From an uncultured bacterium (lineage in GTDB: Bacteria > CSSED10-310 > CALFER01): a DNA stretch of 64,000 nucleotides. The stretch spans positions 16,398 to 80,397 of the forward strand of contig CALFER010000076.1 in NCBI GenBank assembly GCA_937951895.1, written 5' to 3'. Shown piece after piece: positions 4,547-47,141 of the stretch. Under the pieces are notes generated by a model. The model searched no databases. It saw nothing but the letters and a program-made list of their open reading frames with translations, and was not told the DNA's origin. The position numbers and the translations under genes are program-made. Positions within the stretch are counted from its first letter, which is position 1, and every line of letters begins with the position of its first letter.

Positions 4547-5701
4547 ATGAAGTACCGCCCGTTCGGCAAACTGGATTTCGATGTGTCTGTTCTCGGGTTC
4601 GGCGCGATGCGCTTGCCCGTCCTGGACGGTGACCATGGGAAAATCGACGAATCCCAGGCGGAAAAACTCGTGTGCCGCGCAATTGACGGCGGAATCAATT
4701 ACATCGACACCGCTTATGTGTATCATCAGGGCAACAGTGAAACATTCCTCGGAAAGATCCTTCACGGCGAACGCAGGAACAAGGTCCGAATCGCAACGAA
4801 GCTGCCCTGCTGGCAGGTCAAGGAATACGGGGATTTCGACCGGCTTCTCAACGAGCAGCTCGGCCGGTTGCGAACCGACCACATCGATTTTTATCTGCTG
4901 CATTCCCTCATGAATCGATTCTGGTCTCGTGTCCGTGATCTGGGGATCCTGCAATGGGCCGAAAAAGCGAAACAGGACGGCCGGGTCGGGCATATCGGGT
5001 TTTCATTCCACGATAAACTCGATGTCTTCAAGAGCCTCATCGACGAGTATCCGGGATGGGAGTTCTGCCAGATTCAATACAATTACATGGACATCGAGAA
5101 TCAGGCGGGGCGGGAGGGGCTCCGGTACGCAGCCGCGAGAGGAATTCCGGTCATCGTGATGGAACCGGTTCTTGGCGGCAATCTCGTCAATCCTCCTCCC
5201 CATGTGAAACCACTGTTCGATGCCCGCCCGGATGGAAGAACCCCCGCGGATTGGGCGTTTCAGTGGATCTGGGACCAACCGGAGGTCACATTGGCGCTCA
5301 GCGGGATGAGTACCCTTGAGCAACTTGAAGAAAACCTGGCGAGCGCGGATCGATCGGGAGCGGGAACGTTATCCGATGCGGATCGGTCATTCATCGATCG
5401 TGTCCGGGACCGGTACCTGGAAAAGAAGCCGATTCCCTGCACGCAATGTGAGTATTGCATGCCGTGTCCGCACGGGGTCATGATCCCGATGAATCTGGCG
5501 ATCTACAACGATGGTCTGGTGTTCGGGAACATGGAGCAGGCGAAAGGTCTTTACAATCATTTCTACCGCAGGGAAACACTGGCCGGAGCCTGCACGCAAT
5601 GCATGGAGTGTCTGCCGAAATGTCCGCAGCAGATCGAGATTCCGGACTGGATGACACGCATTCATGCCGCGCTGGCCGAAACACCGCCGGCACAGGCTTG
5701 A
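4547..5701 (+). CDS. Aldo/keto reductase family oxidoreductase with C-terminal Cys-rich (Fe-S/ferredoxin-like) extension
   Basis: The N-terminal AKR fold is recognisable ('LGFGAMRLP', 'GINYIDTAYVYHQGNSE', 'DHIDFYLLH'). The C-terminus has two Cys clusters, 'CTQCEYCMPCP' and 'CTQCMECLPKCP'. An SD-like AAAGGAAA site precedes the ATG. Confidence 0.75.
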   Translation: MKYRPFGKLDFDVSVLGFGAMRLPVLDGDHGKIDESQAEKLVCRAIDGGINYIDTAYVYHQGNSETFLGKILHGERRNKVRIATKLPCWQVKEYGDFDRLLNEQLGRLRTDHIDFYLLHSLMNRFWSRVRDLGILQWAEKAKQDGRVGHIGFSFHDKLDVFKSLIDEYPGWEFCQIQYNYMDIENQAGREGLRYAAARGIPVIVMEPVLGGNLVNPPPHVKPLFDARPDGRTPADWAFQWIWDQPEVTLALSGMSTLEQLEENLASADRSGAGTLSDADRSFIDRVRDRYLEKKPIPCTQCEYCMPCPHGVMIPMNLAIYNDGLVFGNMEQAKGLYNHFYRRETLAGACTQCMECLPKCPQQIEIPDWMTRIHAALAETPPAQA

Positions 5702-5735
5702 TCGATTTCCCTTCAAGGTCGCGGGCGACTGCCCG

Positions 5736-6791
5736 TCAATTCAGAACCACCTGCGTCAGATTGAAATAGGGCAGGAACATGCCCAGCGCGATCAGGGCGA
5801 CCAGGATACCCATCACGAGCGTGAGAATCGGTTCCAGGACAGTTGTCAGATTGGACACCATGTCATCCACATCCCGCAGGTAAAAATCCGCCACCTTTTT
5901 CAAAACCGTGCCGACCGCACCGACTTCCTCGCCCACGCCGATCATGTCGATGACCAGAGGAGGCAGTGCGGGATGCTTCGTCAGTGCCTGCTCGATATTG
6001 CTCCCTTTGTCGATTTCTCCGCACGAACGGAGGATCGCGGCCTTGAGAACACTGTTCCCGGTGGCGGCGGCGGCAAGATTCATCGTCGGAAGTATCGAGA
6101 CACCGCTTTCGATCATCGTGGAGGTGATCGATGCGAAGCGGAACGTTGCCAGTTTGATCATCAGTGTACGGACAATCGGTGTTTTCAAACTCAGGGAGTC
6201 CATGAATGCGGTCAACCGGAGCCATCTTCCGGATTTGTGGAAGAGTAGAAAAGCGAAGACTGCCGCGAGCAGGATGATCCACCAGTACGATTGGACGAGT
6301 TGCGAGGATTTGATCAGGCTTTTCGTGATGAACGGAAGCTCGACACCTGCATCGGAGTAGACGGACGCGAAGATGGGAATGACATAGATCAGCAGGAAGA
6401 TGATGACGGCGAAGGCCATCAGGAGGGTGATCAGGGGGAACGCCAGTGCTTTCTGGATTTTGCCTCCGAGAGCGTCTTCTTTTTCGAGATAATCCGCGAG
6501 CTGGTTCATGACCTCGGAAAGCTGCCCGCTCTCTTCTCCGGCCTGGACCGAGGTCACGAAAAAATCTCCGAAAATCGTACGGAATCTGCCCAGCGCGTGC
6601 GACAGGGATTCGCCCTGTTCGACGATTTGACCGATATTCCCGACGATCGTCTTCAATCGGCGGTTCGCGGTGCGTTGGGAGATGATGTTCAGGGCTCTGA
6701 GAACGGTGACACCGAGATCGAGCATGAGAGCGAATTGTCGTGAGAACACCGCCAGGTCTCGTCGCGTGATCCGTTCGAATAGGTGCAGCAT
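5736..6791 (-). CDS. Type II secretion / type IV pilus platform protein (GspF/PilC family)
   Basis: Two T2SSF-type repeats each carry three TM helices and 'GE.SG.L' like segments ('AGEESGQLSEVMNQLADY', 'GVGEEVGAVGTVLKKVADFY'). The start is refined to the ATG at 6791, preceded by AAGGAGA, and lies 13 nt downstream of the ATPase stop. Confidence 0.8.
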   Translation of the reverse strand: MLHLFERITRRDLAVFSRQFALMLDLGVTVLRALNIISQRTANRRLKTIVGNIGQIVEQGESLSHALGRFRTIFGDFFVTSVQAGEESGQLSEVMNQLADYLEKEDALGGKIQKALAFPLITLLMAFAVIIFLLIYVIPIFASVYSDAGVELPFITKSLIKSSQLVQSYWWIILLAAVFAFLLFHKSGRWLRLTAFMDSLSLKTPIVRTLMIKLATFRFASITSTMIESGVSILPTMNLAAAATGNSVLKAAILRSCGEIDKGSNIEQALTKHPALPPLVIDMIGVGEEVGAVGTVLKKVADFYLRDVDDMVSNLTTVLEPILTLVMGILVALIALGMFLPYFNLTQVVLN

Positions 6792-6804
6792 GAAGGTCTC
6801 CTTA

Positions 6805-8976
6805 TTATGCGAGACTGATTTCCCGCAGAACTTCTTCGGGGGTGGTGACAGCATCCCTGAGTTTTCGGATGCCGTTCACGGCGAGTGTCTGCATGCCCCC
6901 CTTGACCGCAGCGGCTCGGATCTCCTCGTCGGTCGCTCCAGCCGCGATCATCCGGCTGATATCCGGGTTGATCACCATCAATTCAAAAATTCCGGTACGT
7001 CCCCGGAAACCGGTATGAAAACACGCATCGCATCCCACTGCTTTCCCGATCCTCAGGTCCGGATCGTCATCCCATCCAAGAAATCGACGGAGGGATTCGG
7101 ACGGCGGCACCAGGGTTTTGCAGGTGTCACAGAGTTTTCGCACGAGACGTTGGGCGACGACACCCACAATGGAACTCGACAGAAGAAAGCGTTCGACTCC
7201 CAGATTGCCCATCATGGCAACTGCGCTGGCGGCATCCTTCGTGTGGAGCGTGCAGAACACGAGCTGGCCGGTCAGTGCGGCCCATGTTGCCACTTTCGCA
7301 GTTTCACTGTCCCTCACTTCACCCACCATGATGATATCTGCGTCATGTCTGAGAAGCGCACGCAGCCCTGTTCGGAAATCCAGTCCGATGTCCGGGTTGA
7401 CCTGGATCTGATTGATGCCCGCCAGGCGATACTCCACGGGATCCTCGATCGTGACGATATTCCTGTTCAGGATATTGGTCTGATTCAGGGCGGCGTAAAG
7501 TGTCGTCGTCTTTCCGCTTCCGATCGGTCCCGTGACCAGGATCATGCCGTGCGGCATTTCGATCAGGGATTCCATTTTCCTGAGATCCTCCGATTCCCAT
7601 CCGAGTTGCCGCAACCCGGTCAGTACGCGGCTTTCGTCCAGAAACCGAATCGTCAGTTTTTCTCCGAGATAGGTTGGAATGGATGCCGATCGGAAATTGA
7701 AGTTGCGATTGCGCAGTTCCATTGAAAAGTTGCCGTCCTGCGGGCGCCGTTTTTCCGTAATGTCCATATTCGACAAGAGTTTGATTCTGGACAACAGGGG
7801 TAATTCGAGCGCTTTCGGAATCGTCATGACATCATACAGAAGTCCGTCGATCCGGTACCGTACCCGCATTTCGGGAATTTGCGGTTCGAGATGAATGTCG
7901 GTTGCGCGCGCGTTGATCGCTCCATCGATAATCGAACTGGCCAACTGAACCGCGGATACATCGTCTGTGGACAGAGATCCGGCTCGCGTGCCCTCGCGCA
8001 ATTTCTTCTCGAGTTCGGACCCCGTGCCGGCGATCGCCCGTGAGGCATACAGTTTCCCGACGTGTTTCTCCCAGTCGTTCGCAAGAATGAGCGTCGGAAT
8101 CAGTTCGAACCCGGTAACCAGCCGCGCTTTCTGAATCGCGATTTCGTCCAGCGGATCGACCATTCCCAGTACGAGTTTACCGTTTTTCATCTTGATCGGC
8201 AGCAGTTTGTGCATTCGGATCACATGTTCCGGTATCACGAATGCCATCTCCTCGTTCGGCGGGTTTTTATTCAGGTCGATGAATGGAATATCGAGCACTT
8301 TTTCGAGGGTTGCCGAGACTTTCTCAGGAGACACCGCCTTGTTTGAAATCAAGGCGGAAATAATGGGCATTCCATCCTCTTCATGCAGTTTCCGGGCTCT
8401 CTCGACATCGTTGGCGCTCACGAGATTCGTGTTGAGCAGAACATCGATGACCAGATCTTCCTTGGCATGTGACACACCGATTCCGACTCGGGATTTCATG
8501 AGGTCGGCAATCGTGGAGTGACTGACCATCCTGAGATTCAGCAGGACACGCCATAGTGGAAGTCCGCTGGCCGTCTCCTGAGCGCGGGCCCGCTCCAGTT
8601 GCTCGGAGGTGATGATCCCCTTGGAAACGAGGAGTTCGCCGAGTTGCTGATCGTCGTCCGACGCATCGAGCGCTTTTCTGAGTTCCTGATCGCTGATGAT
8701 CCCGGACTCGATCAGCACATTGCGAACCTCTTTCTTATCCCGGGTCCTGAAAAACGGGAGCGGTACCTCGTAGAGTAACAGAGACTTGAGACTATCGATG
8801 CTGACTTCCTGCTTCAGGATGTCCTTGATATCCTTCCCGGATTTTTCCTGCTGTTTGAGCAACTGGTCCATTTTCTCCGAGGTCACCAAACCGGCTTCCC
8901 TCAATACTTCACCGAGCTTGAATTCCATCGTCGTTTCACTCGGCTTCGATTGGGTCTGTTTCTGATCCTGATTCAT
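6805..8976 (-). CDS. Type II secretion / type IV pilus ATPase (GspE/PilB family) with N-terminal tandem MshEN-like domains
   Basis: Walker A 'TGPIGSGKTTTLYA', the GspE signature region, and a C-terminal Cys tetrad ('CDTC...CDAC') are present. The N-terminus has repeated ~70-aa modules containing 'KLGEVLREAGLVTSEKMDQLLKQQ' and 'QLGELLVSKGIITSEQLERARAQ'. A GGAGGGAA SD precedes the ATG at 8976. Confidence 0.85.
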   Translation of the reverse strand: MNQDQKQTQSKPSETTMEFKLGEVLREAGLVTSEKMDQLLKQQEKSGKDIKDILKQEVSIDSLKSLLLYEVPLPFFRTRDKKEVRNVLIESGIISDQELRKALDASDDDQQLGELLVSKGIITSEQLERARAQETASGLPLWRVLLNLRMVSHSTIADLMKSRVGIGVSHAKEDLVIDVLLNTNLVSANDVERARKLHEEDGMPIISALISNKAVSPEKVSATLEKVLDIPFIDLNKNPPNEEMAFVIPEHVIRMHKLLPIKMKNGKLVLGMVDPLDEIAIQKARLVTGFELIPTLILANDWEKHVGKLYASRAIAGTGSELEKKLREGTRAGSLSTDDVSAVQLASSIIDGAINARATDIHLEPQIPEMRVRYRIDGLLYDVMTIPKALELPLLSRIKLLSNMDITEKRRPQDGNFSMELRNRNFNFRSASIPTYLGEKLTIRFLDESRVLTGLRQLGWESEDLRKMESLIEMPHGMILVTGPIGSGKTTTLYAALNQTNILNRNIVTIEDPVEYRLAGINQIQVNPDIGLDFRTGLRALLRHDADIIMVGEVRDSETAKVATWAALTGQLVFCTLHTKDAASAVAMMGNLGVERFLLSSSIVGVVAQRLVRKLCDTCKTLVPPSESLRRFLGWDDDPDLRIGKAVGCDACFHTGFRGRTGIFELMVINPDISRMIAAGATDEEIRAAAVKGGMQTLAVNGIRKLRDAVTTPEEVLREISLA

Positions 8977-8994
8977 CTCGTTCCCTCCATTTGC

Positions 8995-9420
8995 TTAGAG
9001 TTCATCGACGTCGAGAATCCGGATGGAGTCATTCGAAAGCGCGATCCGCGCTTCCTGTCGCACCATCGTCTCGCGGGCATGTCCGGCGAATCGGCCTTCA
9101 ATGCGAACGAGCCATTCCCCGGGATTATCGAACGGCGTGCAGGTTACCCGATCCCATCGCATTGCCGGAACATCCGGAAGACCCTGCAGGATCACTCGAT
9201 CTGCATCCGGTTGCGGGATCATCGCCGGCTGGATCGCTCCGGGTAACCGCTGCCAGACTCCGGCCATCAGAATCCGGCAGGTCATCCGGTCGTTGAAGGC
9301 GTCGATCGTCCGGTAGTGCCGCTGAGCAGACCAATCGAATGCCATTGCGATGCTCATGATGAGCATCAGAAATGCAAGAGCCATCGGGAGTGCGGCGCCA
9401 CGATCCGAATGACGTCTCAT
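8995..9420 (-). CDS. Small membrane-anchored protein, possible minor pseudopilin / GspK-like component
   Basis: The start is refined to the ATG at 9420 (AAGGAGAGGG SD), which overlaps the upstream stop as ATGA, indicating translational coupling. The N-terminus is hydrophobic ('ALPMALAFLMLIMSIAMAF') but lacks a canonical G-F-T-L-E prepilin motif. The long N-terminal extension in the ORF track was rejected. Confidence 0.4.
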   Translation of the reverse strand: MRRHSDRGAALPMALAFLMLIMSIAMAFDWSAQRHYRTIDAFNDRMTCRILMAGVWQRLPGAIQPAMIPQPDADRVILQGLPDVPAMRWDRVTCTPFDNPGEWLVRIEGRFAGHARETMVRQEARIALSNDSIRILDVDEL

Positions 9421-9980
9421 ACGCCCTCTCCTTGTTGCGGTCTTGTACTGTCGTCGATTCCCGCCGGAACGTCCACCGTCAGAACGAAAGGCTGCAGGAC
9501 GACACTCCCGGACGGCTTGGGAGAAACCGTCATTCGAACGGCGGCGGGCGGTCGATCCGACTCCCATCGCTCGATCCAGTCAGATCCCCGTAGATAGGCG
9601 AATGTGATCGAACACGGAAAACTCCGCTCAACGGCCGGTTCCCGATCGTTCGGTTTACGAAGATACGAACTCGTCGAATCCGCATTGGAGTGGATGCGAA
9701 CCTCCTGCATGATCCGGCCACGTCGGACCGTGAAGGCACATTCATGTGTGCTGAATTGGATGGGGTATTCAGGCGCGAGTCGCATCAGGTCGGAAGCGGT
9801 CAGATCCAGCAATCGAACCGATGCGTCGACACCGTGCAATCGGGTGTCCCCGGTTCTGCTGATCCGTACAAATCGTGAAAGAAGTCCGAACAGCAGGGAA
9901 ACGATCATGCCCAGAATCGCGATGACGGTCAGTATTTCCAGCAGAGTGAATCCTCTGGAGGAGTTTCGATGGCTCATCAT
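9417..9980 (-). CDS. Prepilin-type N-terminal cleavage/methylation domain pseudopilin
   Basis: The N-terminus 'SRGFTLLEILTVIAILGMIVSLLF' carries a class III signal with Glu at +5. A GAGGAGGG SD is present. The start overlaps the upstream gene stop. Confidence 0.7.
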   Translation of the reverse strand: MMSHRNSSRGFTLLEILTVIAILGMIVSLLFGLLSRFVRISRTGDTRLHGVDASVRLLDLTASDLMRLAPEYPIQFSTHECAFTVRRGRIMQEVRIHSNADSTSSYLRKPNDREPAVERSFPCSITFAYLRGSDWIERWESDRPPAAVRMTVSPKPSGSVVLQPFVLTVDVPAGIDDSTRPQQGEGV

Positions 9981-10363
9981 CTCGATCCCTCCTCAACATC
10001 AAACCCGTCAAGGGCATCGCGGACGAAATAATACGTTCGTGTAAACTCGTTGCGGTATCGGAGTTTCATGGCCAGTACGTCCGGTTTTCCCGGGAGCGGG
10101 GGGCTGGAGTCATCGAAGGTTACGTGAAAGCCGCTTGACGAGTGTTTCCCTTCCGAAGCTTGGTCGACGGGCTTCCGGAGGCGGGCATCGACACGGATGG
10201 AGGACGCTTCGAGCGCGCTCCTCGCGAGCATTTCTGTCCGATGAACAGCGTTGTTCGACCGGATGAGCAGGCTGAAAACGGCCGATAATCCTATCCCGAT
10301 GACCGCAAGGGCAACCAGCGTTTCGACAATTGAGAATCCCGCGCAGGTCCAGGTGCGTTTCAT
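9977..10363 (-). CDS. Prepilin-type pseudopilin (GspI/GspH-like)
   Basis: The N-terminus 'AGFSIVETLVALAVIGIGLSAVFSLL' is a class III signal. The gene lies 12 nt downstream of the FGE-domain gene stop. Confidence 0.7.
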   Translation of the reverse strand: MKRTWTCAGFSIVETLVALAVIGIGLSAVFSLLIRSNNAVHRTEMLARSALEASSIRVDARLRKPVDQASEGKHSSSGFHVTFDDSSPPLPGKPDVLAMKLRYRNEFTRTYYFVRDALDGFDVEEGSR

Positions 10364-10375
10364 CGTTGAACCTCG

Positions 10376-11680
10376 TCAGGGTGCTGTGCGGACCAGCCGG
10401 AATCCGATCCAGAACCTTGTTGAGTTGGGTTCGAACAGCTGACGATTGGCGCATCGGCAAACTGCGGCAGAACTTCCCCATTCACCACCCCGGATGATCC
10501 GGTAATCGCCGGTCGATGGCCCCTGATAATCCGTAACGGCCCCCTCTGGATACTCGGCTTCATACCAATCCCAGACCCATTCGAACACATTTCCGAGTGT
10601 ATCCTTCAAGCCCCTCGGATTGGGTAGTTTCGATCCGATAACAGCAGCAGAGCCGCCCGCATTCGCGTGGTAGACACAATACTGCTCCAGAACCGTATGC
10701 GTGCCCTCTGTCGCCGAGTTGCAATTGCCGGCATGGTAGTTCGGCTCGTCGCAGAAAAAGGGTCCCTGTGTTCCGGCGCGGGTCATGAATTCCCATTCGC
10801 CTTCGGTCGGAAGCCGGTACCCGTTCGCAGTGAAATCACAGAAAAACGGACCGATCGAATAATTGGTCCGATCGACCGGAACCGTAAAGGAGGCATTTGT
10901 ATAGTAGCAACGGTTGTAGCCGTTCTGGAGGGACAGGAGATTGGCGAACAACACGGCATCATACCACGTGACCCGATTGATGGGATGATTCATGGTTGGA
11001 CTGTAATCGGTGTCGCTCGAATCCGACGTCAGTGTCGATTGAACTGCCTTGAGATCCGCCCACATCTGGCGGGATAATTCGGTTTCCATGACCAGGAGGT
11101 TCCGGATGAGTATATGTGTGAACGGATCTTCATCATCGCTCCGGCATGCTTCTTCATCGGGTGAGCCCTGCACGAAGGAACCGACTGTGATGGGGATCAT
11201 GTTTCCGACTGAAACGGGATGAGAAGGGTTCGGTGTGGGGGTGAATGGAGAACCGGACGTCCAGCTGAACGTGACATCAGCGAGGTTGCTGATGAGATTG
11301 CCCTGGGACACGACAGCGGCATAGAACAAGGCACCTGAAAACTCGCCTGCTCCGGATGGCCAGGCAAACTCCGGAATGATCGTCCTGACATCCTGGTAAT
11401 CAGCAGGAAAACTCGTCATCTCGAAATCGATATCCGGAGGATAGGTGACCCAACCGGGGAAAAACCAGAAATCACCGGTTCCGACAGTCAGAGCGACGAA
11501 GAGTTGTGCATCATTAATGGAAGAGCCGGTGTTGACGATGTCGAGAACCAATGAAAAGCCGACTCCGGGACTGAACGTATCTGTCGGCATCTGCAGGTCG
11601 AGTTCGATGTCTTGCGCCTGAATCGCAGTGCACACGGTCAACAAAATGAAACTCTGGAAAATACGATTTCTCGTGAACAT
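10376..11680 (-). CDS. Secreted FGE-sulfatase (formylglycine-generating enzyme family) domain protein with the novel ~115-aa domain at its N-terminus
   Basis: The start is refined to the ATG at 11680 (GGAGG SD), giving the signal peptide 'MFTRNRIFQSFILLTVCTAIQAQ'. The novel domain ('LQMPTDTFSPG...LFVALTVGTGDFWFFPGW...IIPEFAWP...FSW') follows. A short P/T linker and an FGE-type domain ('GYRLPTEGEWEFMTRAG', 'RGGEWGSSAAVCRC', 'GFRLVRTAP') complete the protein. Confidence 0.75.
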   Translation of the reverse strand: MFTRNRIFQSFILLTVCTAIQAQDIELDLQMPTDTFSPGVGFSLVLDIVNTGSSINDAQLFVALTVGTGDFWFFPGWVTYPPDIDFEMTSFPADYQDVRTIIPEFAWPSGAGEFSGALFYAAVVSQGNLISNLADVTFSWTSGSPFTPTPNPSHPVSVGNMIPITVGSFVQGSPDEEACRSDDEDPFTHILIRNLLVMETELSRQMWADLKAVQSTLTSDSSDTDYSPTMNHPINRVTWYDAVLFANLLSLQNGYNRCYYTNASFTVPVDRTNYSIGPFFCDFTANGYRLPTEGEWEFMTRAGTQGPFFCDEPNYHAGNCNSATEGTHTVLEQYCVYHANAGGSAAVIGSKLPNPRGLKDTLGNVFEWVWDWYEAEYPEGAVTDYQGPSTGDYRIIRGGEWGSSAAVCRCANRQLFEPNSTRFWIGFRLVRTAP

Positions 11681-11780
11681 CAAAACCTCCGTTGTTGATA
11701 GACCTTCGGTGGTCAATTCCCGGTTCCTGTTATCAATATGTAGAAGAGTCGTGAATTTTGCAAATGAAGTCGTCGGTGGC

Positions 11781-13988
11781 TCAGCGATCAATTCCCATCC
11801 CGGATAATACTCCCCGGGCTTCAAGGAGTGTCTCCCTGATATGGAGCGGAATATGCCTGGTTCCTCGCAACTCGATCATCCTGCACAGACGCTCCAGATC
11901 GGCTTTCTTTTCTTCATCCATCGGTTCGATTTGCGTCAGGGTGAGCAGTCTCCAGATCTTCAATCGAGCTAACTCGAGCTGGTAGCTTGAGTAACCGGAC
12001 TGGTAAACCAGTTCTTCAAGAATTCGAATGGCGATATCGTAATTTAGAATCATTTCCCGGCAGCTCATCGAGCGTTCATGTGTTCCGATGAAATTCGTGA
12101 TCAGGAAGACCTTGGTGATTCGAACATCCGGTGAATCCGCTTCGAGCGGTTCCAACATAGCAATCGCACGCTCAAATACGGCTCGGCTTGCATCCACAAG
12201 ATTCACTTTGTTGTAGCACATTGCAAGATTGTTACTGATCCTGGTGATTTTTACGGCATGGATCGGATTCGAGGGATCATAGGCATCGTAGTACCATGTT
12301 TCTGCCTGCTGGAGATAGGGTAATGCATCGGAATATCGCTTCTGTTCGTACAGCGTCAAACCTTTCCCGCCCAGTTGGTATCCGATGGCGATGGTCTGAT
12401 CATCGAACGTGCCTTCCGTGAGGAGTCTCTTTTTGATCTCAAGGCCTTCGTCCAGCAACCGCTCCGCTTCTTCTAACTGTCCCAGTGAAATGAGCACGGT
12501 TGATCTGTTGTACGTGATCTTGGTCAACAGTAAATCCAGTAAAGACCTGGGATATCTTTCTGTTGCGGAAATCTCCTCAAGAAAGCGTAATCCTTCGTCA
12601 TAGGTCTCGAGAGAACGAGTCATTTCGTTGGAACAGGATAACAGGTTTCCATGATCAACGAACAGATTGACTGCAAGCCTGATCCACTCCTCCGAACGCT
12701 CATCAGCAGGTGTAAGCCGCACATACATTTTACCGGTCGCGTAGGCGTGGTCTGCTCCTTCCGAATCCATCAGTGCTTCGAGAATCAGTCCTTTTTGATA
12801 CAAGGCTTGGGCACATTCCATTGCAGTCCGTTCCATCCCGCTCTCGAACTGCTCCTGAGCAACACGGCTGTAGGTCTGATTGATCTCCAGATCGAACAGG
12901 ATCTTCCCGTAATTCGATCTGGGTTTCTGAGTTGCGAAAACACCGGCATCCGAGGGCCCGGTGCGTTCGAGGAGTTTCATCAGATTGATCTGCGGGTCCT
13001 GCCAACGTGAACCCGAAACGAGACTTCGTCCGGCTCTTTCTTCCAGTGATGCCGCTTTGGGGATCGGTTCCACATTTGAACGAGGATAGTCGTTTCCGGT
13101 GTATTCGCTGTATGTTTCTTCCAGTACGGCAACGGCATCGCCGATTCGTTCCCAGCGATCGGCGGGATTCGGTTTGAAGCACCTCTCCAAAACAAGGATC
13201 AGCTTTGGAGGAATAGTGATTCGGGGGGTGGATCGGAGAGTCAGATTTTCCAGTACATGCGGTGCGAGAATGCCGATTTGCCAGGTGATCGCGCCTGTCA
13301 CCATATGAAGAATCGTCACGCCCCAGTTCCAGAGATCGCTCTGGAAGGTGATCTTTCGTCCGGAAGCCTGTTCAGGTGAACAATAAGCAGGGGTCATTCC
13401 TGCGGAACTGACGAGCGGCGTCATGCTCCGGAGGTCTTGATCCGGTCCGGGTGACATCGGTAACGATCGCGCCAGCCCGAAATCGGTGATTTTCACAACT
13501 CCGTCCACAGTCACCAATGCATTCGCGGGTTTGATGTCCTGATGAATGACTCCCCAGTCATGCGAAACCTGAAGACCCCTGCCCAGTTGGATCCCTGCAT
13601 CCAGAACGGCTTCCAGCGTGTTCAGCCGACCGGATTTTATGGATGCTTCCAGAGTGCCGCCGTTAACATACTCACAGCAGATTGCAATCTGGTTCTCGAT
13701 CGAACGGATAAAGCGGCATGTCGTGATATTGGGGTGGATCGGCAGGTCGATCCACGAATAGAGTTCTCGAAAGAACGAAGCTTCAGGTGAGATGTCATTC
13801 CGATGATCGCTTCGGAGTATCTTGACGGCATAATGGTGGCCTGTCAGGGCATCATGAACGAGATACACCCGGCCGAAACCGCCTTCTCCAAGCAGGCGAA
13901 CGATCGTGTAGTTTTTAAAGAGAACCTGATCGTCCTTCCATACAGGTCGGTCTTCCCGGAGACTCGGCAGGGTGGTATCTGCATTCAT
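11781..13988 (-). CDS. Ser/Thr protein kinase with C-terminal TPR-like repeat region
   Basis: Glycine loop 'LGEGGFGRVY', catalytic Lys 'YAVKIL', catalytic loop 'HQDIKPANALV' and 'DFGLAR' are present. About 450 aa of helical repeats follow. The gene lies 100 nt upstream of the FGE/T2SS-like operon on the same strand. Confidence 0.8.
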   Translation of the reverse strand: MNADTTLPSLREDRPVWKDDQVLFKNYTIVRLLGEGGFGRVYLVHDALTGHHYAVKILRSDHRNDISPEASFFRELYSWIDLPIHPNITTCRFIRSIENQIAICCEYVNGGTLEASIKSGRLNTLEAVLDAGIQLGRGLQVSHDWGVIHQDIKPANALVTVDGVVKITDFGLARSLPMSPGPDQDLRSMTPLVSSAGMTPAYCSPEQASGRKITFQSDLWNWGVTILHMVTGAITWQIGILAPHVLENLTLRSTPRITIPPKLILVLERCFKPNPADRWERIGDAVAVLEETYSEYTGNDYPRSNVEPIPKAASLEERAGRSLVSGSRWQDPQINLMKLLERTGPSDAGVFATQKPRSNYGKILFDLEINQTYSRVAQEQFESGMERTAMECAQALYQKGLILEALMDSEGADHAYATGKMYVRLTPADERSEEWIRLAVNLFVDHGNLLSCSNEMTRSLETYDEGLRFLEEISATERYPRSLLDLLLTKITYNRSTVLISLGQLEEAERLLDEGLEIKKRLLTEGTFDDQTIAIGYQLGGKGLTLYEQKRYSDALPYLQQAETWYYDAYDPSNPIHAVKITRISNNLAMCYNKVNLVDASRAVFERAIAMLEPLEADSPDVRITKVFLITNFIGTHERSMSCREMILNYDIAIRILEELVYQSGYSSYQLELARLKIWRLLTLTQIEPMDEEKKADLERLCRMIELRGTRHIPLHIRETLLEARGVLSGMGIDR

Positions 13989-14184
13989 CGTTCAACGATA
14001 CCGCATCATTGCCATCAATCACAAGGGTGGATCGATCGGATCCATGCAGATTCCGTGCGGGAAATGCGGGTGTCCGGGAAAGCGGATGCCAGTCTGTGAT
14101 TTGTTTTTCTACCTCGTCACCATTATTACCGAATAGTATTCACCCGGATCGGATTCAGATCCGGTCGAAAGAAATGGAGACGGG

Positions 14185-16119
14185 ATGAAGGTAACAGGGA
14201 AATCAGTCGGATCGATCGGATTCGGGTTGGTTCTGTGGATGATGTGGACCCCGAAACTCCATGCCATGCATAGTCCGCAATGGATTTGGGAAGACCCCAG
14301 GAGCTCACTTGGGATGAATCTCGATATGAGCGCATCGGGCAATGAGATGGTGGTGGGCACATCATCCGGGGATGACAACCGCATGGTGGTGGCGTACTTC
14401 AACCAGGAATCGTCCTTTCCCGTGGCTCGAATCGAGTATCCCGGCGCCGGGAGCATCGGCAGCGTATCGATTTCCGATGATGGATTCCGATACGCGTGTG
14501 CGTTCGGTCATGAGATTCATGTTTATCAGGCGCCCGACACGGAAATCTTCACGTTCCGGGATAACGACCTGCTCCTGTCTCAAGTCGCTCTGAACACGGA
14601 CGGCAGCAAACTGGTCGTGACCAGTCTCCACAATCAATCTCTGCCCGGACGTGTCCTGTTCTTCGACGTGGATACCCAGGCATTGCTGTGGCAGGACGAT
14701 CCGTCGGAGGAAGTATCCGTCAACGGCGCGTACGCTCCGTCACGAATCTCAGCGGACGGCACCCGTGTGCTGGTGCTGTTTGCGGGCCGTCAGATGGGGA
14801 ACCCGGCGTATGTCGTGCTGTATCAGACCGACTCGGTCGACCCCGGAGCGCCCGTATGGATCAGCCAACCACTGGAAGCCTGGGGGCGTCAGATCGAGAT
14901 GTCTGCGGACGGGAACTTCTTCATCACGATCCTGGCAAACATCATCTCGTGTTTCGATATGTCGCCGCCGATAGCCGGCGTTAAAACACCGCTCTGGGAG
15001 GCAGAGGGGAGTGGATATGATACATTGAATCACTTCGGAGGCATTTCCGACGATGGTTCGGTCGTGGCCCATTTCGGTGAAACCTCGACCGGATCCTGGG
15101 TTGAAATCTACGACGGCGCGAATGGATCGATCCATTGGATGTCCTACGTGTTTCTGGAAGAGATAAGAGGGTGTGTCTCGGGAGACGGAACCCGTGTCGC
15201 GTATTCATCCTGGGAGAATCCCGAACCGGTGAATCACTTTGTGTATGATATCGGGGAGGGATCGGTGATCTGGTCAGAACCCGGTTACGGTCTGGTTGCG
15301 ATGAACACGACAGGTGATCGGCTTTTTCTTACGGATGGCAGTGACGACGAATCACCGCCGACGCGATTGATGAGGCTGGAAGATAACCTTCCGCCGCAAT
15401 GCAGTATCGAGTCGCCCCTGCCGGGCGAGACAGTATCAGGGATGGTGCATCTCACCGGTTTAGTCGCCGATGTCGATGATCTGATCGAACGTGTCGAGGT
15501 ATTGTTGCCATCCGGTGTGACGCTCGCGAACGCACCTTCAGGAGCTTCGGGAGAATGGTCGGCGGATATCGACGTGTCTGCTTATGCGGGAAGCCTGTTG
15601 CTGATCAAAGCCCGTGCGATCGATACCCGGTACAAGCATGGTCAATGGGCGGAGGTTGGTGTCGCTGTCGTGCCCGATGGGACTCCGACTCCGGGACCCA
15701 GCGCAACATCGGCCGCCGAGTTTACTCCAACCCCCACCCCACCGTCTCCAGCCGGGCTCACACTGTCGCTGGCTCTCTCACAGAACCTGTTCATGGCCGG
15801 GGATGCCTTCTGGCTGGACGCGATGATCGACAATCCGCAGGAACCCCTCACACAAGTTCCATTGGTCGTGCTGCTCGAGATCCACGGCGCATTTTTCTGC
15901 TGGCCGTCCTGGTCGGCGCTGGAAGTTTCCGGCGAGGGATTTGATTACTCCTTGCGCAATATCCCACGCGGGACGCATCGATTCGAGATCATCCAGCCGT
16001 TCTTCTGGCCGGAAACCGGTGGTTGGGGAATCGGACTCCTTTTCTATGGGGTTTTACTCGATCCTCAATTCTCAAACCTGTTGTGCGATATCGATGTCGA
16101 GATGTGGTCGTATCGCTGA
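14185..16119 (+). CDS. Secreted beta-propeller-like repeat protein with Ig-like region, P/T linker and novel C-terminal domain
   Basis: An N-terminal hydrophobic signal is followed by repeated strand-like segments. The linker is 'PDGTPTPGPSATSAAEFTPTPTPPSP'. The C-terminal 115 aa ('PLVVLLEIHGAFFCWPSW...FFWP') match the shared domain. Confidence 0.6.
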   Translation: MKVTGKSVGSIGFGLVLWMMWTPKLHAMHSPQWIWEDPRSSLGMNLDMSASGNEMVVGTSSGDDNRMVVAYFNQESSFPVARIEYPGAGSIGSVSISDDGFRYACAFGHEIHVYQAPDTEIFTFRDNDLLLSQVALNTDGSKLVVTSLHNQSLPGRVLFFDVDTQALLWQDDPSEEVSVNGAYAPSRISADGTRVLVLFAGRQMGNPAYVVLYQTDSVDPGAPVWISQPLEAWGRQIEMSADGNFFITILANIISCFDMSPPIAGVKTPLWEAEGSGYDTLNHFGGISDDGSVVAHFGETSTGSWVEIYDGANGSIHWMSYVFLEEIRGCVSGDGTRVAYSSWENPEPVNHFVYDIGEGSVIWSEPGYGLVAMNTTGDRLFLTDGSDDESPPTRLMRLEDNLPPQCSIESPLPGETVSGMVHLTGLVADVDDLIERVEVLLPSGVTLANAPSGASGEWSADIDVSAYAGSLLLIKARAIDTRYKHGQWAEVGVAVVPDGTPTPGPSATSAAEFTPTPTPPSPAGLTLSLALSQNLFMAGDAFWLDAMIDNPQEPLTQVPLVVLLEIHGAFFCWPSWSALEVSGEGFDYSLRNIPRGTHRFEIIQPFFWPETGGWGIGLLFYGVLLDPQFSNLLCDIDVEMWSYR

Positions 16120-16344
16120 ACACCGGCATCGCTTCAAATTCTATCGTATCGGACGCTCCAGGATTTGATCGAACCGATTGATCTCGATCGATTGGTCTGA
16201 TAGATTCACAATAAACTGATCGCGAGACCCTGTTGGAAGTCGCGTCACGATCATCTCCGATTCCATTTGGAGATGGATTGGATGAGACGGGAACTGCGAT
16301 TCGGGTTGTCGCGGTATTCAGACACGATGCGAGGAGGGCGAGTC

Positions 16345-19191
16345 ATGAAGGTAGCGAGTACCATGTGTTTGATCCCGATCATGATCTTCGGAATGATCCC
16401 GATTTGTGATGCATCTTCCTACAAGGTTCGTGTTCCGCATACGATTGAATTCATGTGTGAAGAGGGAACCGGAGGTTATACCGGATATTGGGGGCTCAAG
16501 GTCGTTTGGGGACCCTATCCGGATGCTGCCGGGTATCAGGTGATTTCGCATCATGGCGCGTATGGGGGCGGTTTAGTTGCAGGCAATGTACATGAATGGA
16601 GCATCGGAGGGGGGAGCCCGGTCGCACCCGGCGGATGTCCTGCGATCGAAGCGTCGGTCAATCCCGCCTGGTATCAGAATATCTATGAAGTATGGGGAAC
16701 CTTTCCCGAAGGCGGGAATCTCGAATTGCATAAAACAGACAACATATACGGTGCTGCCCATCCCGGCGACGAAGTGCGATACTTCCTGATCTACAAGAAT
16801 ACCGGGAAGTATCCGTTGCTCGATTGTATCGTCGAAGAAACATGGCCGGACTACATGGAGTTTGTTGCCGGAGGCAGTTCAACCGGTCCGAATACCGTGA
16901 TCTGGAACTTTGGTACGCTGTATCCCGGACAATGGGTCCAGGTCGAACTCGTGTTGCGAATCAGTGAAGATCTCCCGCAATCGATCACGGAAATCTATAA
17001 TGTCGCGGTCGCACATCCCGCTCCTTCACCCTCGCCGGCACCCGGCGGCACACCCGGGTCGGGTATTTCGACCGTCAGCGGCTACGCCGTTTCGCACTGC
17101 GATGCGTTGCGATGCAACTTCGTGACGGGCGACACGGATTGGATCGATCGACCGGACTTCTCCAGTTATCAGGATCTCGTTCCCTATGACGTCGTGCGGG
17201 GGAATGATGATGTGTTGCTCAATTCCGGCTTTACCTCGTTCAACCATACTGTCGCGACAGGAACGCTTCTCCTGTATCAGGGCGGTTTCCACCTCACGAA
17301 TTGTCCGGATCTTCCGGATCAGGTGTTATCCGAGATCATTCTCGACACGCCCGCGTCCATCGAGCATGCTGTATCCGGTATCATGAGCCCAGACGATCAT
17401 GTCAGAGTGCTCGGTCAGTTCCTCACCGTGGAAATTCATGAAGGGCGATATACGCTCAGTGACGATGCGGCCAGCGAATTCGTGGAGGTTGAATCCGGAG
17501 GGATCACGGTGGTCGACCCGCTCGGCGATCGGCATGACCTGACGTCGGGTGACACGTTTACATGGCCCCCGTTGATCGGTCCGAAGAACGGCAGCAACGG
17601 CCCGACGCTGACCGGAACCTCACCGGATCCATTCGGTTCGGTCGAAGTCGGTCATATCGCGATTCAATACGAGTTCGATGAAGCGGTGTCTTCAATCGGC
17701 AATGCGAGCAGTTTTGCGATCGGAGAGACGTCCGGTGTGTGGCATGGGTCGGGCACCCTGACCGATCTCGCATCCTATGTTTCCATCTCCTGGAATGCCG
17801 AAAACACCATTATGACTCTTACAGTAAACTCGACATATCCATGGTTCGGTATGGATCTGGCGGCAGGAATGACCCTCATCACCGGATTGCATCTCGTGGA
17901 TGTCACCGGTCCTTCCGGCACGACACCCGAGATCTATCAGACGATTCCGATCTTTGTCACATCAACGACTTCGTCGCTCGGATGGGTGAGTTGCGAGTAT
18001 GAGCACTTCAGTTTTATCACTCAGGGAAATGACCTTCTATCTCCGGGCGCATCCTGGCATGTCCAGCAACTTCCGTCGCTTCCGGGAGCTGTCCCTGCCG
18101 GTATGTATCAGGCCAGTCCAGCTTTCGAGTTTCAATTCGACGGAACCGTCCTGGATCACTACTGGCTTCAACTCCGTCCCGGTACGCCATGGGGACTTCC
18201 GCAGGGTAACGCGGGCGGTGGACTCTATGTGTGGAGTGGTGCGGAATGGGTCATGCAGCGCGAAGGATTCGGGCTCGAGTGGACCTGGTCGAACCCGCTG
18301 ACGGATCCCCATCAGATCATCGTGCTGCTTTCGGTGTGCGAGCGTCCTGAAGCACCCGGAATTGTTTCGATCGTTCCGAACGCGGGGAGTGGTCCCGTAT
18401 CACCGGATAGCGCAATCGTGATTCAGGTGGCGGCCCGTTCCGGAATCCGTGAACATACAGCGGATATCCGCATCAACGGACAGCGGACGCTTTCATTCGA
18501 TCCGGCAACCGGACAGCTCCAGGGATGGATCGTTGAAGAAAACGATGGGGTGACGACGTTCACCTATACACCGGAAACAGAGTGGCAGGACGGGCAGATC
18601 GTCTTTGTCAGTTACTATCTGGCAGCTCGCTTCGGTTTGATCTCCACGGAAGGGTCGTTTGCATTCCAGGTGGTCTGTTCGGATCCGACCGATGGCGATG
18701 GGGACGGGATGCCGGACAAGTGGGAGACAGCGAATGGAACGAATCCGTCCGGCTTCGACCGGGATGCGGACCCCGACGGTGATTCGCATGCGAACATTAC
18801 AGAATATACACATTGCAGCAGCCCATCGTCTTCGATCTCGTTGCCCGCATTTCCACGGATCGATATCGTCGCGAATCAGGAAGCGTACTATGCCTCCGAT
18901 GAGATGCTCGTCAAGGCACGTGTCACCAGCGGACCTGTCTCCCTGCCGGTCGATCTGTATGTCGCACTCGAGCTGTATGGCGGGTTTTACTTCTGGCCTG
19001 CATTTTCGACCGACGTCGTTCCGATATCCTTCACTATGCCATCGGGAATCGATGTTTCATTCGATCTGTTCTCATATACCTGGGACACGATTCCTGCCGC
19101 GATGACTCTCACGTGGTATGGTGTGTTTGTCGAACCTCAATCCATGTTTCTTTACAGCCTGGATTCACTCTCGATGATTCTGGCGCTCTGA
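16345..19191 (+). CDS. Large secreted protein with DUF11-like Ig-like domain, thrombospondin-type-3-like Ca-binding Asp-rich repeats and novel C-terminal domain
   Basis: The start is refined to the ATG at 16345 (GGAGGAGGG SD), giving the signal 'MKVASTMCLIPIMIFGMIPICDA'. The protein carries 'DGDGDGMPDKWETANGTNPSGFDRDADPDGDSH'. The C-terminal domain is 'PVDLYVALELYGGFYFWPAFS...FSYTWD'. Confidence 0.6.
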   Translation: MKVASTMCLIPIMIFGMIPICDASSYKVRVPHTIEFMCEEGTGGYTGYWGLKVVWGPYPDAAGYQVISHHGAYGGGLVAGNVHEWSIGGGSPVAPGGCPAIEASVNPAWYQNIYEVWGTFPEGGNLELHKTDNIYGAAHPGDEVRYFLIYKNTGKYPLLDCIVEETWPDYMEFVAGGSSTGPNTVIWNFGTLYPGQWVQVELVLRISEDLPQSITEIYNVAVAHPAPSPSPAPGGTPGSGISTVSGYAVSHCDALRCNFVTGDTDWIDRPDFSSYQDLVPYDVVRGNDDVLLNSGFTSFNHTVATGTLLLYQGGFHLTNCPDLPDQVLSEIILDTPASIEHAVSGIMSPDDHVRVLGQFLTVEIHEGRYTLSDDAASEFVEVESGGITVVDPLGDRHDLTSGDTFTWPPLIGPKNGSNGPTLTGTSPDPFGSVEVGHIAIQYEFDEAVSSIGNASSFAIGETSGVWHGSGTLTDLASYVSISWNAENTIMTLTVNSTYPWFGMDLAAGMTLITGLHLVDVTGPSGTTPEIYQTIPIFVTSTTSSLGWVSCEYEHFSFITQGNDLLSPGASWHVQQLPSLPGAVPAGMYQASPAFEFQFDGTVLDHYWLQLRPGTPWGLPQGNAGGGLYVWSGAEWVMQREGFGLEWTWSNPLTDPHQIIVLLSVCERPEAPGIVSIVPNAGSGPVSPDSAIVIQVAARSGIREHTADIRINGQRTLSFDPATGQLQGWIVEENDGVTTFTYTPETEWQDGQIVFVSYYLAARFGLISTEGSFAFQVVCSDPTDGDGDGMPDKWETANGTNPSGFDRDADPDGDSHANITEYTHCSSPSSSISLPAFPRIDIVANQEAYYASDEMLVKARVTSGPVSLPVDLYVALELYGGFYFWPAFSTDVVPISFTMPSGIDVSFDLFSYTWDTIPAAMTLTWYGVFVEPQSMFLYSLDSLSMILAL

Positions 19192-45069: not shown

Positions 45070-45099
45070 CTTATCACTTTCCGGAAAGGAGGGCGCATC

Positions 45100-45603: not shown

Positions 45604-45617
45604 AAGGAGATTTGAAC

Positions 45618-47130: not shown

Positions 47131-47141
47131 GGAGATCAGTC

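What the first reader, a model, noticed from the sequence alone, without database searches (positions are those of the whole stretch)
5736..13988. Tight operon coupling an FGE-domain protein carrying the novel domain to a minimal T2SS/T4P-like set (two pseudopilins, small membrane protein, PilB/GspE, PilC/GspF) behind a Ser/Thr kinase-TPR gene
On the minus strand the genes run as follows: STK-TPR (13988-11781), a 100-nt gap, the FGE/novel-domain protein (11680-10376), a 12-nt gap, pseudopilin (10363-9977), an overlap, pseudopilin (9980-9417), an ATGA overlap, a small membrane protein (9420-8995), 18 nt, the GspE-like ATPase (8976-6805), 13 nt, and the GspF-like platform (6791-5736). Overlapping or near-touching stops and starts indicate co-translation. 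No major pilin, secretin, prepilin peptidase or GspC/L/M is present. This is therefore either a fragment of a split T2SS/T4P or a reduced pseudopilus machine. Because a member of the novel-domain family is the first gene of this operon, the machine is a candidate for exporting or surface-assembling the domain family. That link is inference only.
Basis: partly seen in the sequence, partly recalled or inferred. Interest (0 to 1): 0.7.

Follow-up and report, generated by a model that had tools for sequence, protein, structure and literature searches.

The report
Pilus-type assembly module beside unrelated neighbour
The genes are real, but the conserved unit is an ordinary five-gene pilus/secretion assembly module of an uncultured bacterial phylum, and the enzyme-like gene next to it sits there only in this one species group, so there is no evidence that the machine exports that protein family.

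Summary
The organism belongs to candidate phylum CSSED10-310.

The conserved unit is five genes: a GspI/PilV-like prepilin, a GspJ-like prepilin, a short GspK-position protein, a 723-aa PilB/GspE-type ATPase with MshE-type c-di-GMP motifs, and a GspF/PilC platform. This module recurs in seven lineages, at 45-96% ATPase identity to the window.

The FGE-like gene lies upstream in only one of those seven lineages, the window's own species group. The kinase-TPR gene lies upstream in two. Homologues of the FGE-like protein elsewhere have no pilus or secretion neighbours. In one 4.29-Mb relative contig they lie 165 and 465 kb from the module.

The "novel domain" is a CARDB/FnIII-like beta-sandwich. 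It occurs 11 times in this window, so adjacency is expected by chance. The FGE-like protein lacks one of the two catalytic cysteines.

Best reading: this is a sub-operon for the minor-pilin tip, motor and platform of a dispersed type IV filament system. The proposed export link is not supported. It is a new member of a known kind, of low interest.

The parts
9977..10363 (-). Prepilin-type minor (pseudo)pilin, 128 aa, in the GspI/PilV position. First gene of the conserved module.
   Evidence: N-terminus ...CAG|FSIVETLVAL has G-1, F+1 and E+5. Pfam N_methyl E=6e-5. Weak NCBIfam hits to PilV (1e-5), XpsI and GspI, all below cut-off. Present at this position in 7 lineages. The subtype assignment is tentative.
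9417..9980 (-). Prepilin-type minor pseudopilin, 187 aa, GspJ/PilW-like.
   Evidence: N-terminus ...SRG|FTLLEILTVI. Pfam N_methyl E=1.4e-6. A profile of 8 orthologues matches the C-terminal globular region of EpsJ (2ret_B E=2.5e-4; 3cfi_B 5.5e-4) and GspJ (3ci0_J 4e-3), independently of the N-terminal helix.
8995..9420 (-). Short (141 aa) single-pass membrane protein in the GspK/PilX position. Pseudopilin-like, without Glu5.
   Evidence: One N-terminal hydrophobic helix, residues 10-28. Conserved at this position in 7 lineages, and 304 aa long in L012. A profile of the 7 short orthologues matches the N-terminus of a bona fide T2SSK protein that sits directly upstream of a related ATPase (L026:62-973; PF03934 57 bits; NF037980 72 bits, below cut-off) at E=6e-6. 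The AF2 model has low confidence (pLDDT 59) but shows a long N-terminal helix plus a 4-stranded sheet. Foldseek gave no significant match. Assignment is inferred, not shown.
6805..8976 (-). PilB/PilF/GspE-family assembly ATPase, 723 aa, with a long N-terminal region carrying MshE-type c-di-GMP-binding motifs.
   Evidence: Pfam T2SSE 4.6e-116 and MshEN 2e-14. Walker A GPIGSGKT, Asp box EDPVE, His box TLHTK and two CxxC motifs. NCBIfam PilB 524.6 bits (cut-off 675.65) and GspE 488.2 (cut-off 630.25). c-di-GMP motif model NF053729 86.7 bits (cut-off 38), 2 stretches. Best solved relatives are Thermus PilF, then Myxococcus and Geobacter PilB, then Vibrio EpsE.
5736..6791 (-). GspF/PilC platform protein, 351 aa. 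Last gene of the module.
   Evidence: Pfam T2SSF 2.2e-50, two stretches. Three strong TM segments. NCBIfam GspF 291.5 bits (cut-off 424) and PilC models 261-272 (cut-off 700). Best solved relative is Myxococcus PilC, 3.9e-65. The convergent gene 4547-5701(+) ends the string.
10376..11680 (-). Neighbour, not part of the conserved module. Secreted FGE-sulfatase-fold protein (434 aa) with an N-terminal CARDB/FnIII-like beta-sandwich (the 'novel domain', 11252-11614).
   Evidence: PF03781 1.4e-37. Best solved relative is Treponema denticola variable protein 1, 1e-26. The first catalytic Cys of true FGEs is Ser here. Domain model pLDDT 92; best PDB matches are RbmA and CARDB. The gene is upstream of the module only in the window group and L006/L017.
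11781..13988 (-). Neighbour. Cytoplasmic Ser/Thr kinase with a TPR region, 735 aa.
   Evidence: Pkinase 1e-39 plus TPR. No TM segment. A co-linear homologue (30% identity over 660 aa) lies directly upstream of the module in L008. It is absent from that position in L005, L007, L009, L010 and L012.

Best explanation
The conserved functional unit is a five-gene sub-operon of a type IV filament machine (the T2SS / type IV pilus superfamily) in candidate phylum CSSED10-310. It encodes three minor (pseudo)pilin-type proteins in GspI-GspJ-GspK order, followed by the assembly ATPase and its inner-membrane platform.

Inferred mechanism, by analogy with GspIJK/XcpVWX and PilVWX:
- The three small proteins form the tip or priming complex on the platform.
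- The hexameric ATPase then drives polymerisation of a major (pseudo)pilin. Its N-terminal MshE-type motifs are predicted to bind c-di-GMP.
- That major subunit, the prepilin peptidase and any outer-membrane channel are encoded elsewhere in the genome.

The FGE-like gene and the kinase-TPR gene are lineage-specific neighbours. In this species the FGE-like gene has come to lie 12 nt upstream of the module and is probably co-transcribed with it. It is one of many paralogous secreted FGE-fold proteins and is not a dedicated partner or substrate of the machine.

Shown: gene content, conservation of the module, non-conservation of the FGE link, motifs. Inferred: tip-complex role, c-di-GMP control, location of the missing parts.
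For: Gene and domain content.

Module synteny: the same module, in the same order and with overlapping or near-touching genes, occurs in L005 (70% ATPase identity), L009 (63%), L007 (62%), L008 (60%), L010 (53%) and L012 (45%), as well as in the near-identical L006/L017. In L009 and L010 the upstream gene is divergent, so the first prepilin gene heads the operon there.

Identity of the small proteins: GspJ-type similarity of the second prepilin outside the N-terminal helix. Similarity of the third protein's N-terminus to a Pfam-confirmed GspK at the same position in a more distant locus.

ATPase: intact motor motifs and tetracysteine. c-di-GMP motif model above its cut-off. The consensus motif and the multi-GSPII precedent in Thermus PilF are described in PMC11731258.

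Signalling genes next to the module in relatives:
- GGDEF and Hpt in L005
- histidine kinases and response regulators in L008
- a response regulator in L009

Missing parts elsewhere: CSSED10-310 MAGs, including the two that gave L005 and L007, are reported to encode most type IV pilus genes (PMC8248873). L009 and L010 carry a second PilB/GspE-like ATPase and a PilT within 8 kb.

No FGE link.
Against: - Only a 64-kb window and flanks of 10 kb or less in relatives could be read. The major pilin, prepilin peptidase and secretin of this organism were never located, so 'dispersed system' rests on a published summary statement and on analogy.
- The GspI and GspK assignments are weak. All sub-family model scores fall below curated cut-offs. 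The structure model of the third protein is of low confidence, with no significant fold match.
- The 12-nt FGE-prepilin spacing does suggest co-transcription in this species, so co-expression with the FGE-like protein cannot be excluded.
- No expression or binding data exist.
Confidence: 0.72

Rival explanations
1. First reader's reading. The module is a dedicated export or surface-assembly machine for the novel-domain protein family, with the FGE/novel-domain protein as its first, co-translated component or substrate.
For: There is a 12-nt gap and shared strand between the FGE-like gene and the first prepilin gene. The arrangement is kept in the sister species L006/L017, at 83% FGE identity. 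The domain sits on many secreted-type proteins: 10 C-terminal copies in the window, and copies on a peptidase C1 and an Exo_endo_phos protein in relatives. The flanking gene 14185-16119 also carries it.
Against: - The FGE gene is absent from the upstream position in six of seven lineages that keep the module.
- Three full-length homologues of the FGE/novel-domain protein have no T2SS/T4P neighbours. One is from the same sample as the window.
- In a 4.29-Mb relative contig the FGE paralogues lie 165 and 465 kb away.
- About 27% of genes in the window carry the domain, so a carrier on at least one flank is expected roughly half the time.
- The domain is N-terminal in some proteins and C-terminal in others. 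It has a generic CARDB/FnIII fold, unlike a positional sorting signal.
Confidence: 0.06
2. The five genes are a self-sufficient, reduced pseudopilus machine. The three small proteins alone form a short piston or tip structure with no separate major subunit, and the system works without a canonical secretin.
For: The module travels as a compact unit with its own ATPase and its own platform in seven lineages. No major pilin gene was found within 10 kb in any of them. Relatives hold another PilB/GspE-like ATPase and a PilT elsewhere, so this one could serve a separate, smaller system.
Against: - The two prepilins have canonical cleavage motifs, which need a prepilin peptidase that the module does not encode.
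- No known type IV filament system works without a major subunit (established knowledge).
- The window encodes a lipid A acyltransferase and the phylum is predicted Gram-negative, so an outer-membrane conduit would be required for export.
- Absence from 10-kb flanks is weak evidence in genomes where such genes are commonly scattered.
Confidence: 0.12
3. The kinase-TPR protein and the secreted FGE-fold protein form a signalling pair that regulates the module, as in the common Pkinase-FGE-sulfatase fusions. On this reading the whole seven-gene string is one regulatory unit.
For: A co-linear kinase-TPR homologue sits directly upstream of the module in a second lineage (L008). FGE-sulfatase domains fused to Ser/Thr kinases have solved structures: 5nxl 'non-specific serine/threonine protein kinase' and 7spq 'Ser/Thr kinase ToxD' are among the hits. 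Another FGE/novel-domain paralogue lies about 2 kb from large kinase genes in L015.
Against: - The kinase has no membrane segment, and the FGE-like protein has a signal peptide, so they are in different compartments.
- Kinase adjacency holds in only 2 of 7 lineages, and the FGE gene is absent in the second of them.
- Ser/Thr kinase-TPR genes are numerous in these genomes.
Confidence: 0.1

Closest known systems
Type II secretion system pseudopilus tip plus motor (GspI-GspJ-GspK, GspE, GspF; e.g. ETEC GspIJK 3CI0, Pseudomonas XcpVWX)
   Same: - Gene order I-J-K.
- The second prepilin matches the EpsJ/GspJ globular region.
- The third protein lacks Glu5 and resembles the GspK N-terminus.
- GspE-type ATPase with tetracysteine, and a GspF-type platform.
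   Different: - No GspC, D, G, H, L, M or O in the window.
- The ATPase and platform score below the GspE and GspF equivalog cut-offs.
- The third protein is 141 aa and lacks the T2SSK alpha-domain.
- The minor pseudopilin genes precede E-F instead of following G-H.
Type IVa pilus assembly ATPases with N-terminal GSPII/MshEN domains (Thermus thermophilus PilF, Myxococcus/Geobacter PilB, Vibrio MshE)
   Same: Best solved sequence relatives are PilF (3.5e-118) and PilB. The NCBIfam MshE-related c-di-GMP motif model is passed, with two stretches. An extended N-terminus carries several copies of the 24-residue motif described in PMC11731258.
   Different: - The PilB equivalog score is not reached (524.6 vs 675.65).
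- The core ATPase region scores the same against EpsE as against PilF (about 322-326 bits).
- No PilT, PilM-Q or PilA is adjacent in the window.
- c-di-GMP binding is untested.
Core minor pilins FimU-PilV-PilW-PilX of type IVa pili
   Same: A set of small prepilin-type proteins encoded together. The first prepilin's best NCBIfam hit is PilV. Their presumed role is priming of filament assembly (established knowledge; review PMC7248040 listed).
   Different: There are only three genes, with no PilY1 or PilE. They are fused into one operon with the motor and platform, which is not the usual T4aP layout.
FGE-sulfatase-fold proteins that are not formylglycine-generating enzymes (Treponema denticola variable protein 1, PvdO, PorK/GldK)
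   Same: The neighbouring 434-aa protein has the FGE-sulfatase fold. Its best solved relative is T. denticola variable protein 1 (1e-26). Like such proteins, it lacks the full catalytic Cys pair.
   Different: It carries an N-terminal CARDB/FnIII-like beta-sandwich not seen in those proteins. It scores far below the PorK/GldK model (48 vs 350 bits), so it is not a T9SS ring component.

Membership tests
Type IV filament superfamily (T2SS/T4P) core | PilB/GspE-family assembly ATPase with Walker A, Asp box, His box and a zinc tetracysteine | tested here: met
   PF00437 4.6e-116. GPIGSGKT, EDPVE, TLHTK, CDTC and CDAC.
Type IV filament superfamily (T2SS/T4P) core | Polytopic GspF/PilC platform protein with two T2SSF domains | tested here: met
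   PF00482 2.2e-50, two stretches. Myxococcus PilC 3.9e-65.
Type IV filament superfamily (T2SS/T4P) core | Subunits with a class III (prepilin) signal: G-1, hydrophobic +1, E+5 | tested here: met
   Two proteins carry it: AG|FSIVE and RG|FTLLE. PF07963 is above cut-off for both.
Type IV filament superfamily (T2SS/T4P) core | Prepilin peptidase and a major (pseudo)pilin | tested here: not met
   Neither is in the 64-kb window, nor within 10 kb of the module in relatives. A published summary says most T4P genes are present in the phylum.
Type II secretion system (Gsp) | Outer-membrane secretin GspD and the assembly platform proteins GspC/L/M | tested here: not met
   No Pfam secretin or GspC/L/M hit on any large ORF of the window. 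The rest of the genome is untestable.
Type II secretion system (Gsp) | GspE and GspF at equivalog level | tested here: not met
   TIGR02533 488.2 bits against a cut-off of 630.25. TIGR02120 291.5 against 424.
Type II secretion system (Gsp) | Minor pseudopilin GspJ | tested here: met
   The profile of 8 orthologues matches the EpsJ/GspJ C-terminal region at E 2.5e-4 to 4e-3. The single sequence is below the TIGR01711 cut-off, so this is family-level homology only. PilW is homologous to GspJ, so the match does not separate T2SS from T4aP.
Type II secretion system (Gsp) | Minor pseudopilins GspI and GspK | tested here: inconclusive
   GspI/PilV hits are 1e-5 to 4e-4, below cut-offs. The third protein has no Pfam or NCBIfam hit. 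Its profile matches the N-terminus of a true T2SSK protein at E 6e-6. The AF2 model has low confidence and Foldseek found nothing significant.
Type IVa pilus (Pil) | PilB at equivalog level, with PilT retraction ATPase and PilMNOPQ | tested here: not met
   TIGR02538 524.6 bits against a cut-off of 675.65. No PilT or PilM-Q in the window. PilT-family genes do lie near related ATPases in L009, L013, L018, L020, L021 and L023.
MshE-type c-di-GMP receptor ATPases | [quoted passage not shown] | tested here: met
   NF053729 86.7 bits against a cut-off of 38, two stretches, best at 111-160. Motifs read at 20-43, 83-106, 111-134 and 140-163 (consensus from PMC11731258). Actual nucleotide binding is not testable here.
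Formylglycine-generating enzyme (true FGE/SUMF1) | FGE-sulfatase fold | tested here: met
   PF03781 1.4e-37, residues 159-431.
Formylglycine-generating enzyme (true FGE/SUMF1) | Pair of copper-binding catalytic cysteines (human Cys336/Cys341; the LCHxSYC motif) | tested here: not met
   In the alignment to Streptomyces FGE (6muj/2q17), the window reads GGEWGSSAAVC against GGSYLCHDSYC. The first Cys is Ser and the second is kept. The identity of the catalytic residues is from established knowledge.
T9SS PorK/GldK ring lipoprotein | Equivalog-level match to TIGR03525 | tested here: not met
   48 bits against a cut-off of 350. PorK structures match only at 3.5e-7, over the C-terminal 150 aa.

The most novel reading that the evidence does not exclude
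The five-gene module is a stand-alone, reduced pseudopilus machine peculiar to CSSED10-310 and its neighbours. It would have a truncated GspK-like cap, no separate major subunit and a multi-MshEN, c-di-GMP-gated motor. In this lineage it would have been recruited to deliver the very abundant CARDB-like-domain proteins, including the FGE-fold protein encoded at its head, to the cell surface.
Probability: 0.05. Interest if true: 0.7.

Novelty: new member of a known kind. Interest (0 to 1): 0.25.

Why it matters
The evidence points elsewhere. The result is a modest annotation gain for a barely studied candidate phylum.
- It defines a conserved 'tip complex + motor + platform' sub-operon.
- Its ATPase carries an unusually motif-rich N-terminus predicted to bind c-di-GMP.
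- The adjacent FGE-fold protein should not be annotated as a formylglycine-generating enzyme or as a secretion component.

It also shows that in genomes where a quarter of local genes carry one domain, adjacency to that domain is not evidence of a functional link.

Tried and rejected
1. A profile search of the 5.8-billion-protein collection with the alignment of third-gene products returned only 4 proteins, all already known. It gave too little depth for a good structure model.
2. The AF2 model of the third protein from a 4-row alignment had pLDDT 59. Foldseek against the PDB gave no match below E=0.04, only NTF2-like generic hits. I therefore make no structural claim.
3. Profile and single-sequence searches of the PDB with the third protein and with its 304-aa L012 homologue found nothing.
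4. The first-prepilin profile hit only N-terminal helices of assorted pilins, so GspI versus PilV versus a major pilin could not be settled.
5. The promoter and terminator scan of 5400-14400 found no more sites than in shuffled sequence. It was not used.
6. GC and GC3 by gene show no sign that the FGE gene is a recent foreign insertion.
7. I considered the FGE-like protein as a PorK-like structural ring component of a secretion system and rejected it on score.
8. I considered the novel domain as a T9SS-type C-terminal sorting signal and rejected it. No Por_Secre_tail hit was found. The domain is N-terminal in many proteins. Its best fold matches are RbmA and CARDB.
9. The genome-collection scan with the ATPase gave only three loci. 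The metagenome scan with the N-terminal alignment gave 11, mostly distant.


Full report
**Observation**

The junctions are as described:
- a 100-nt gap between the kinase and FGE genes
- a 12-nt gap between FGE and the first prepilin
- two 4-nt ATGA overlaps
- 18-nt and 13-nt gaps around the ATPase

GGAG-type ribosome-binding sites precede five of the genes. Independent gene calls on four public contigs of the same organism reproduce the same boundaries.

Pfam confirms the domain content:
- Pkinase plus TPR
- FGE-sulfatase with an unannotated N-terminal region of about 120 aa
- two N_methyl prepilin motifs
- T2SSE plus MshEN
- two T2SSF domains

Pfam scans of all other large ORFs found no secretin, prepilin peptidase, GspC/L/M, PilM-Q or further prepilin in the 64 kb. 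A six-frame scan for the prepilin motif found none either.

**Source**

The closest genome records are MAGs of candidate division CSSED10-310, at 70% and 62% ATPase identity. An unnamed MAG matches at 96%. A lipid A acyltransferase gene in the window and the published description of the phylum as Gram-negative (PMC8248873) point to a diderm envelope.

**What is conserved**

I anchored on the ATPase and read the surroundings of graded homologues. The same five genes, in the same order and tightly packed, occur in:
- L005 (70%)
- L009 (63%)
- L007 (62%)
- L008 (60%, on a 4.29-Mb contig)
- L010 (53%)
- L012 (45%)
- the near-identical L006/L017

The five genes are a prepilin of about 125-145 aa, a prepilin of about 181-204 aa, a small membrane protein of about 141-150 aa, an ATPase of about 720-730 aa, and the platform.

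What lies upstream differs between lineages:

| Locus | Upstream of the module |
|---|---|
| L005 | PAS histidine kinase/response-regulator hybrid |
| L007 | RNA methyltransferase-like gene |
| L008 | kinase-TPR gene |
| L009, L010 | divergently transcribed genes |
| L012 | 727-aa membrane protein |

In L009 and L010 the first prepilin gene therefore heads the operon.

The FGE-like gene is upstream only in the window's own species group. That is 1 of 7 lineages. The kinase-TPR gene is upstream in 2 of 7. The L008 kinase is co-linear with the window's at 30% identity over 660 residues. More distant relatives keep only the ATPase-platform pair, often followed by PilT-like ATPases.

**The reverse test**

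Full-length homologues of the FGE/novel-domain protein are numerous and paralogous, with several per contig. I read three contexts: P0285 at 53% identity, P0302 at 47% (from the same sample as the window organism), and P0311 at 47%. None holds a type IV filament gene.

In the 4.29-Mb contig that carries the L008 module at about 1.99 Mb, two FGE-fold homologues lie at about 1.525 and 1.825 Mb. They are 465 and 165 kb away, again without pilus-type neighbours.

The 'novel domain' is found 11 times in the window: ten C-terminal copies on large secreted-type proteins, plus the N-terminal copy on the FGE-like protein. That is roughly a quarter of the genes in the window. A carrier on at least one flank of any operon is therefore expected about half the time.

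The domain family has 721 cluster representatives in the 1.84-billion-protein library, at either end of many different proteins. Its AF2 model is confident (pLDDT 92). It is a beta-sandwich closest to Vibrio RbmA FnIII domains, CARDB and a carbohydrate-binding module. That is an adhesion or matrix-type fold, not a recognisable sorting signal.

**The parts of the module**

- **Prepilins.** Both have canonical cleavage motifs.
- **Second prepilin.** A profile of its eight orthologues matches the globular C-terminal region of EpsJ and GspJ (E 2.5e-4 to 4e-3). This is independent of the shared N-terminal helix, so it belongs to the GspJ/PilW family.
- **First prepilin.** It gives only weak PilV/GspI hits and generic pilin helices. 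The GspI/PilV label rests mainly on size and position.
- **Third protein.** It has one N-terminal hydrophobic helix and no Glu5. In L012 its positional counterpart is 304 aa, with sub-threshold HHH/T2SSK hits. In L026 the gene directly upstream of a related ATPase is a Pfam-confirmed T2SSK protein (57 bits). A profile built only from the seven short proteins matches the N-terminal 50 residues of that protein at E=6e-6. NCBIfam's GspK model recognises the same region. I read the third protein as a GspK-position pseudopilin that lacks the alpha-domain. Structural confirmation failed, so this remains an inference.
- **ATPase.** It has a Walker A motif, an Asp box, a His box and a tetracysteine. 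It scores below both the PilB and GspE equivalog cut-offs. Its core is equidistant from PilF and EpsE. Its N-terminal 330 residues hold a canonical MshEN domain preceded by several copies of the 24-residue c-di-GMP-binding motif. The NCBIfam model for that motif is passed at 86.7 bits against a cut-off of 38. The motif and the multi-domain precedent in Thermus PilF are described in PMC11731258.
- **Signalling genes beside the module in relatives.** These include a GGDEF cyclase and an Hpt protein in L005, histidine kinases and response regulators in L008, and a response regulator in L009. This fits second-messenger control but does not prove it.

**The FGE-like neighbour**

It has a signal peptide and the FGE-sulfatase fold. 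Its best solved relative is Treponema denticola variable protein 1. Aligned to Streptomyces FGE, the first of the two catalytic cysteines is serine. The second FGE-fold protein in the window has the same defect. It falls far below the PorK/GldK model. It should be regarded as one of many secreted FGE-fold proteins of unknown role.

**Mechanism (inferred)**

By analogy with GspIJK/XcpVWX and PilVWX, the three small proteins would form the priming or tip complex on the platform. The ATPase, gated by c-di-GMP, would polymerise a major subunit encoded elsewhere. A prepilin peptidase encoded elsewhere must process the two prepilins.

Two things support the view that such genes exist elsewhere. CSSED10-310 MAGs are reported to hold most type IV pilus genes. 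Relatives also carry a second assembly ATPase and a PilT within 8 kb of the module. Whether the module belongs to a T2SS-like or a pilus-like system cannot be decided from the evidence gathered.

**Verdict**

The 'split system' option is favoured. The proposed link to the novel-domain family is not supported. This is a new member of a known kind, in a poorly studied phylum, and of low interest. The residual novel reading is a self-contained reduced machine serving the domain family. I put it at about 5%.

Noticed in passing
window 84-2558(+), 14185-16119(+), 16267-19191(+), 20272-21786(-), 21855-24776(-), 24755-27469(+), 40234-41967(+), 51082-53319(+), 56123-58051(+), 60337-63702(-), 11252-11614(-): A beta-sandwich domain of about 115 aa occurs 11 times in 64 kb. 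Ten copies end exactly at the C-terminus of large beta-helix/PKD/PMP-repeat proteins, and one is N-terminal on the FGE-like protein. The AF2 model has pLDDT 92 and best matches RbmA FnIII and CARDB. The family has 721 cluster representatives in the 1.84-billion library and no Pfam model hit.
   Followed up: partly
window 6805-8976(-), residues 1-330: The ATPase N-terminus carries about four copies of the MshEN 24-residue c-di-GMP motif (20-43, 83-106, 111-134, 140-163) ahead of a canonical MshEN domain. The stretch GLPLWRVLL is invariant across the family. A 2024 paper states that assembly ATPases with several GSPII domains had only been reported in Deinococcus-Thermus.
   Followed up: partly
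L005 7048-10326: In the 70%-identity relative, the module is followed by a PAS-GGDEF diguanylate cyclase, an Hpt protein and a second GspE/PilB-like ATPase.
   Followed up: partly
L009 187-8263; L010 2787-4490: Relatives carry a second PilB/GspE-like ATPase (562-567 aa), a PilT-family ATPase (447 bits, above cut-off) and a stand-alone 517-aa MshEN-domain protein within 8 kb of the module.
   Followed up: partly
window 33578-35062(-) and 37953-40160(+): A second FGE-fold protein (CarboxypepD_reg plus FGE-sulfatase) also lacks the first catalytic Cys. It lies 3 kb from a 735-aa 'Sulfatase'-domain protein that has no C/S-x-P-x-R motif. This is therefore not a classical FGE-sulfatase pair.
   Followed up: partly
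window 44953-50588(+): A run of Fe-S-related genes: a Nitro_FeMo-Co domain protein, two CbiA/ParA-Fer4 proteins, a radical SAM protein and a NifU_N-ParA (NUBPL-like) fusion. It lies downstream of a PAS sigma-54 activator.
   Followed up: no
window 58173-60353(+): A 726-aa protein combines many ankyrin repeats with a metallo-beta-lactamase-fold domain.
   Followed up: no
window 5736-6854(-): The platform protein is about 40 residues shorter at its N-terminus (351 aa) than in all relatives (389-411 aa). It begins at profile position 58 of the GspF model.
   Followed up: no
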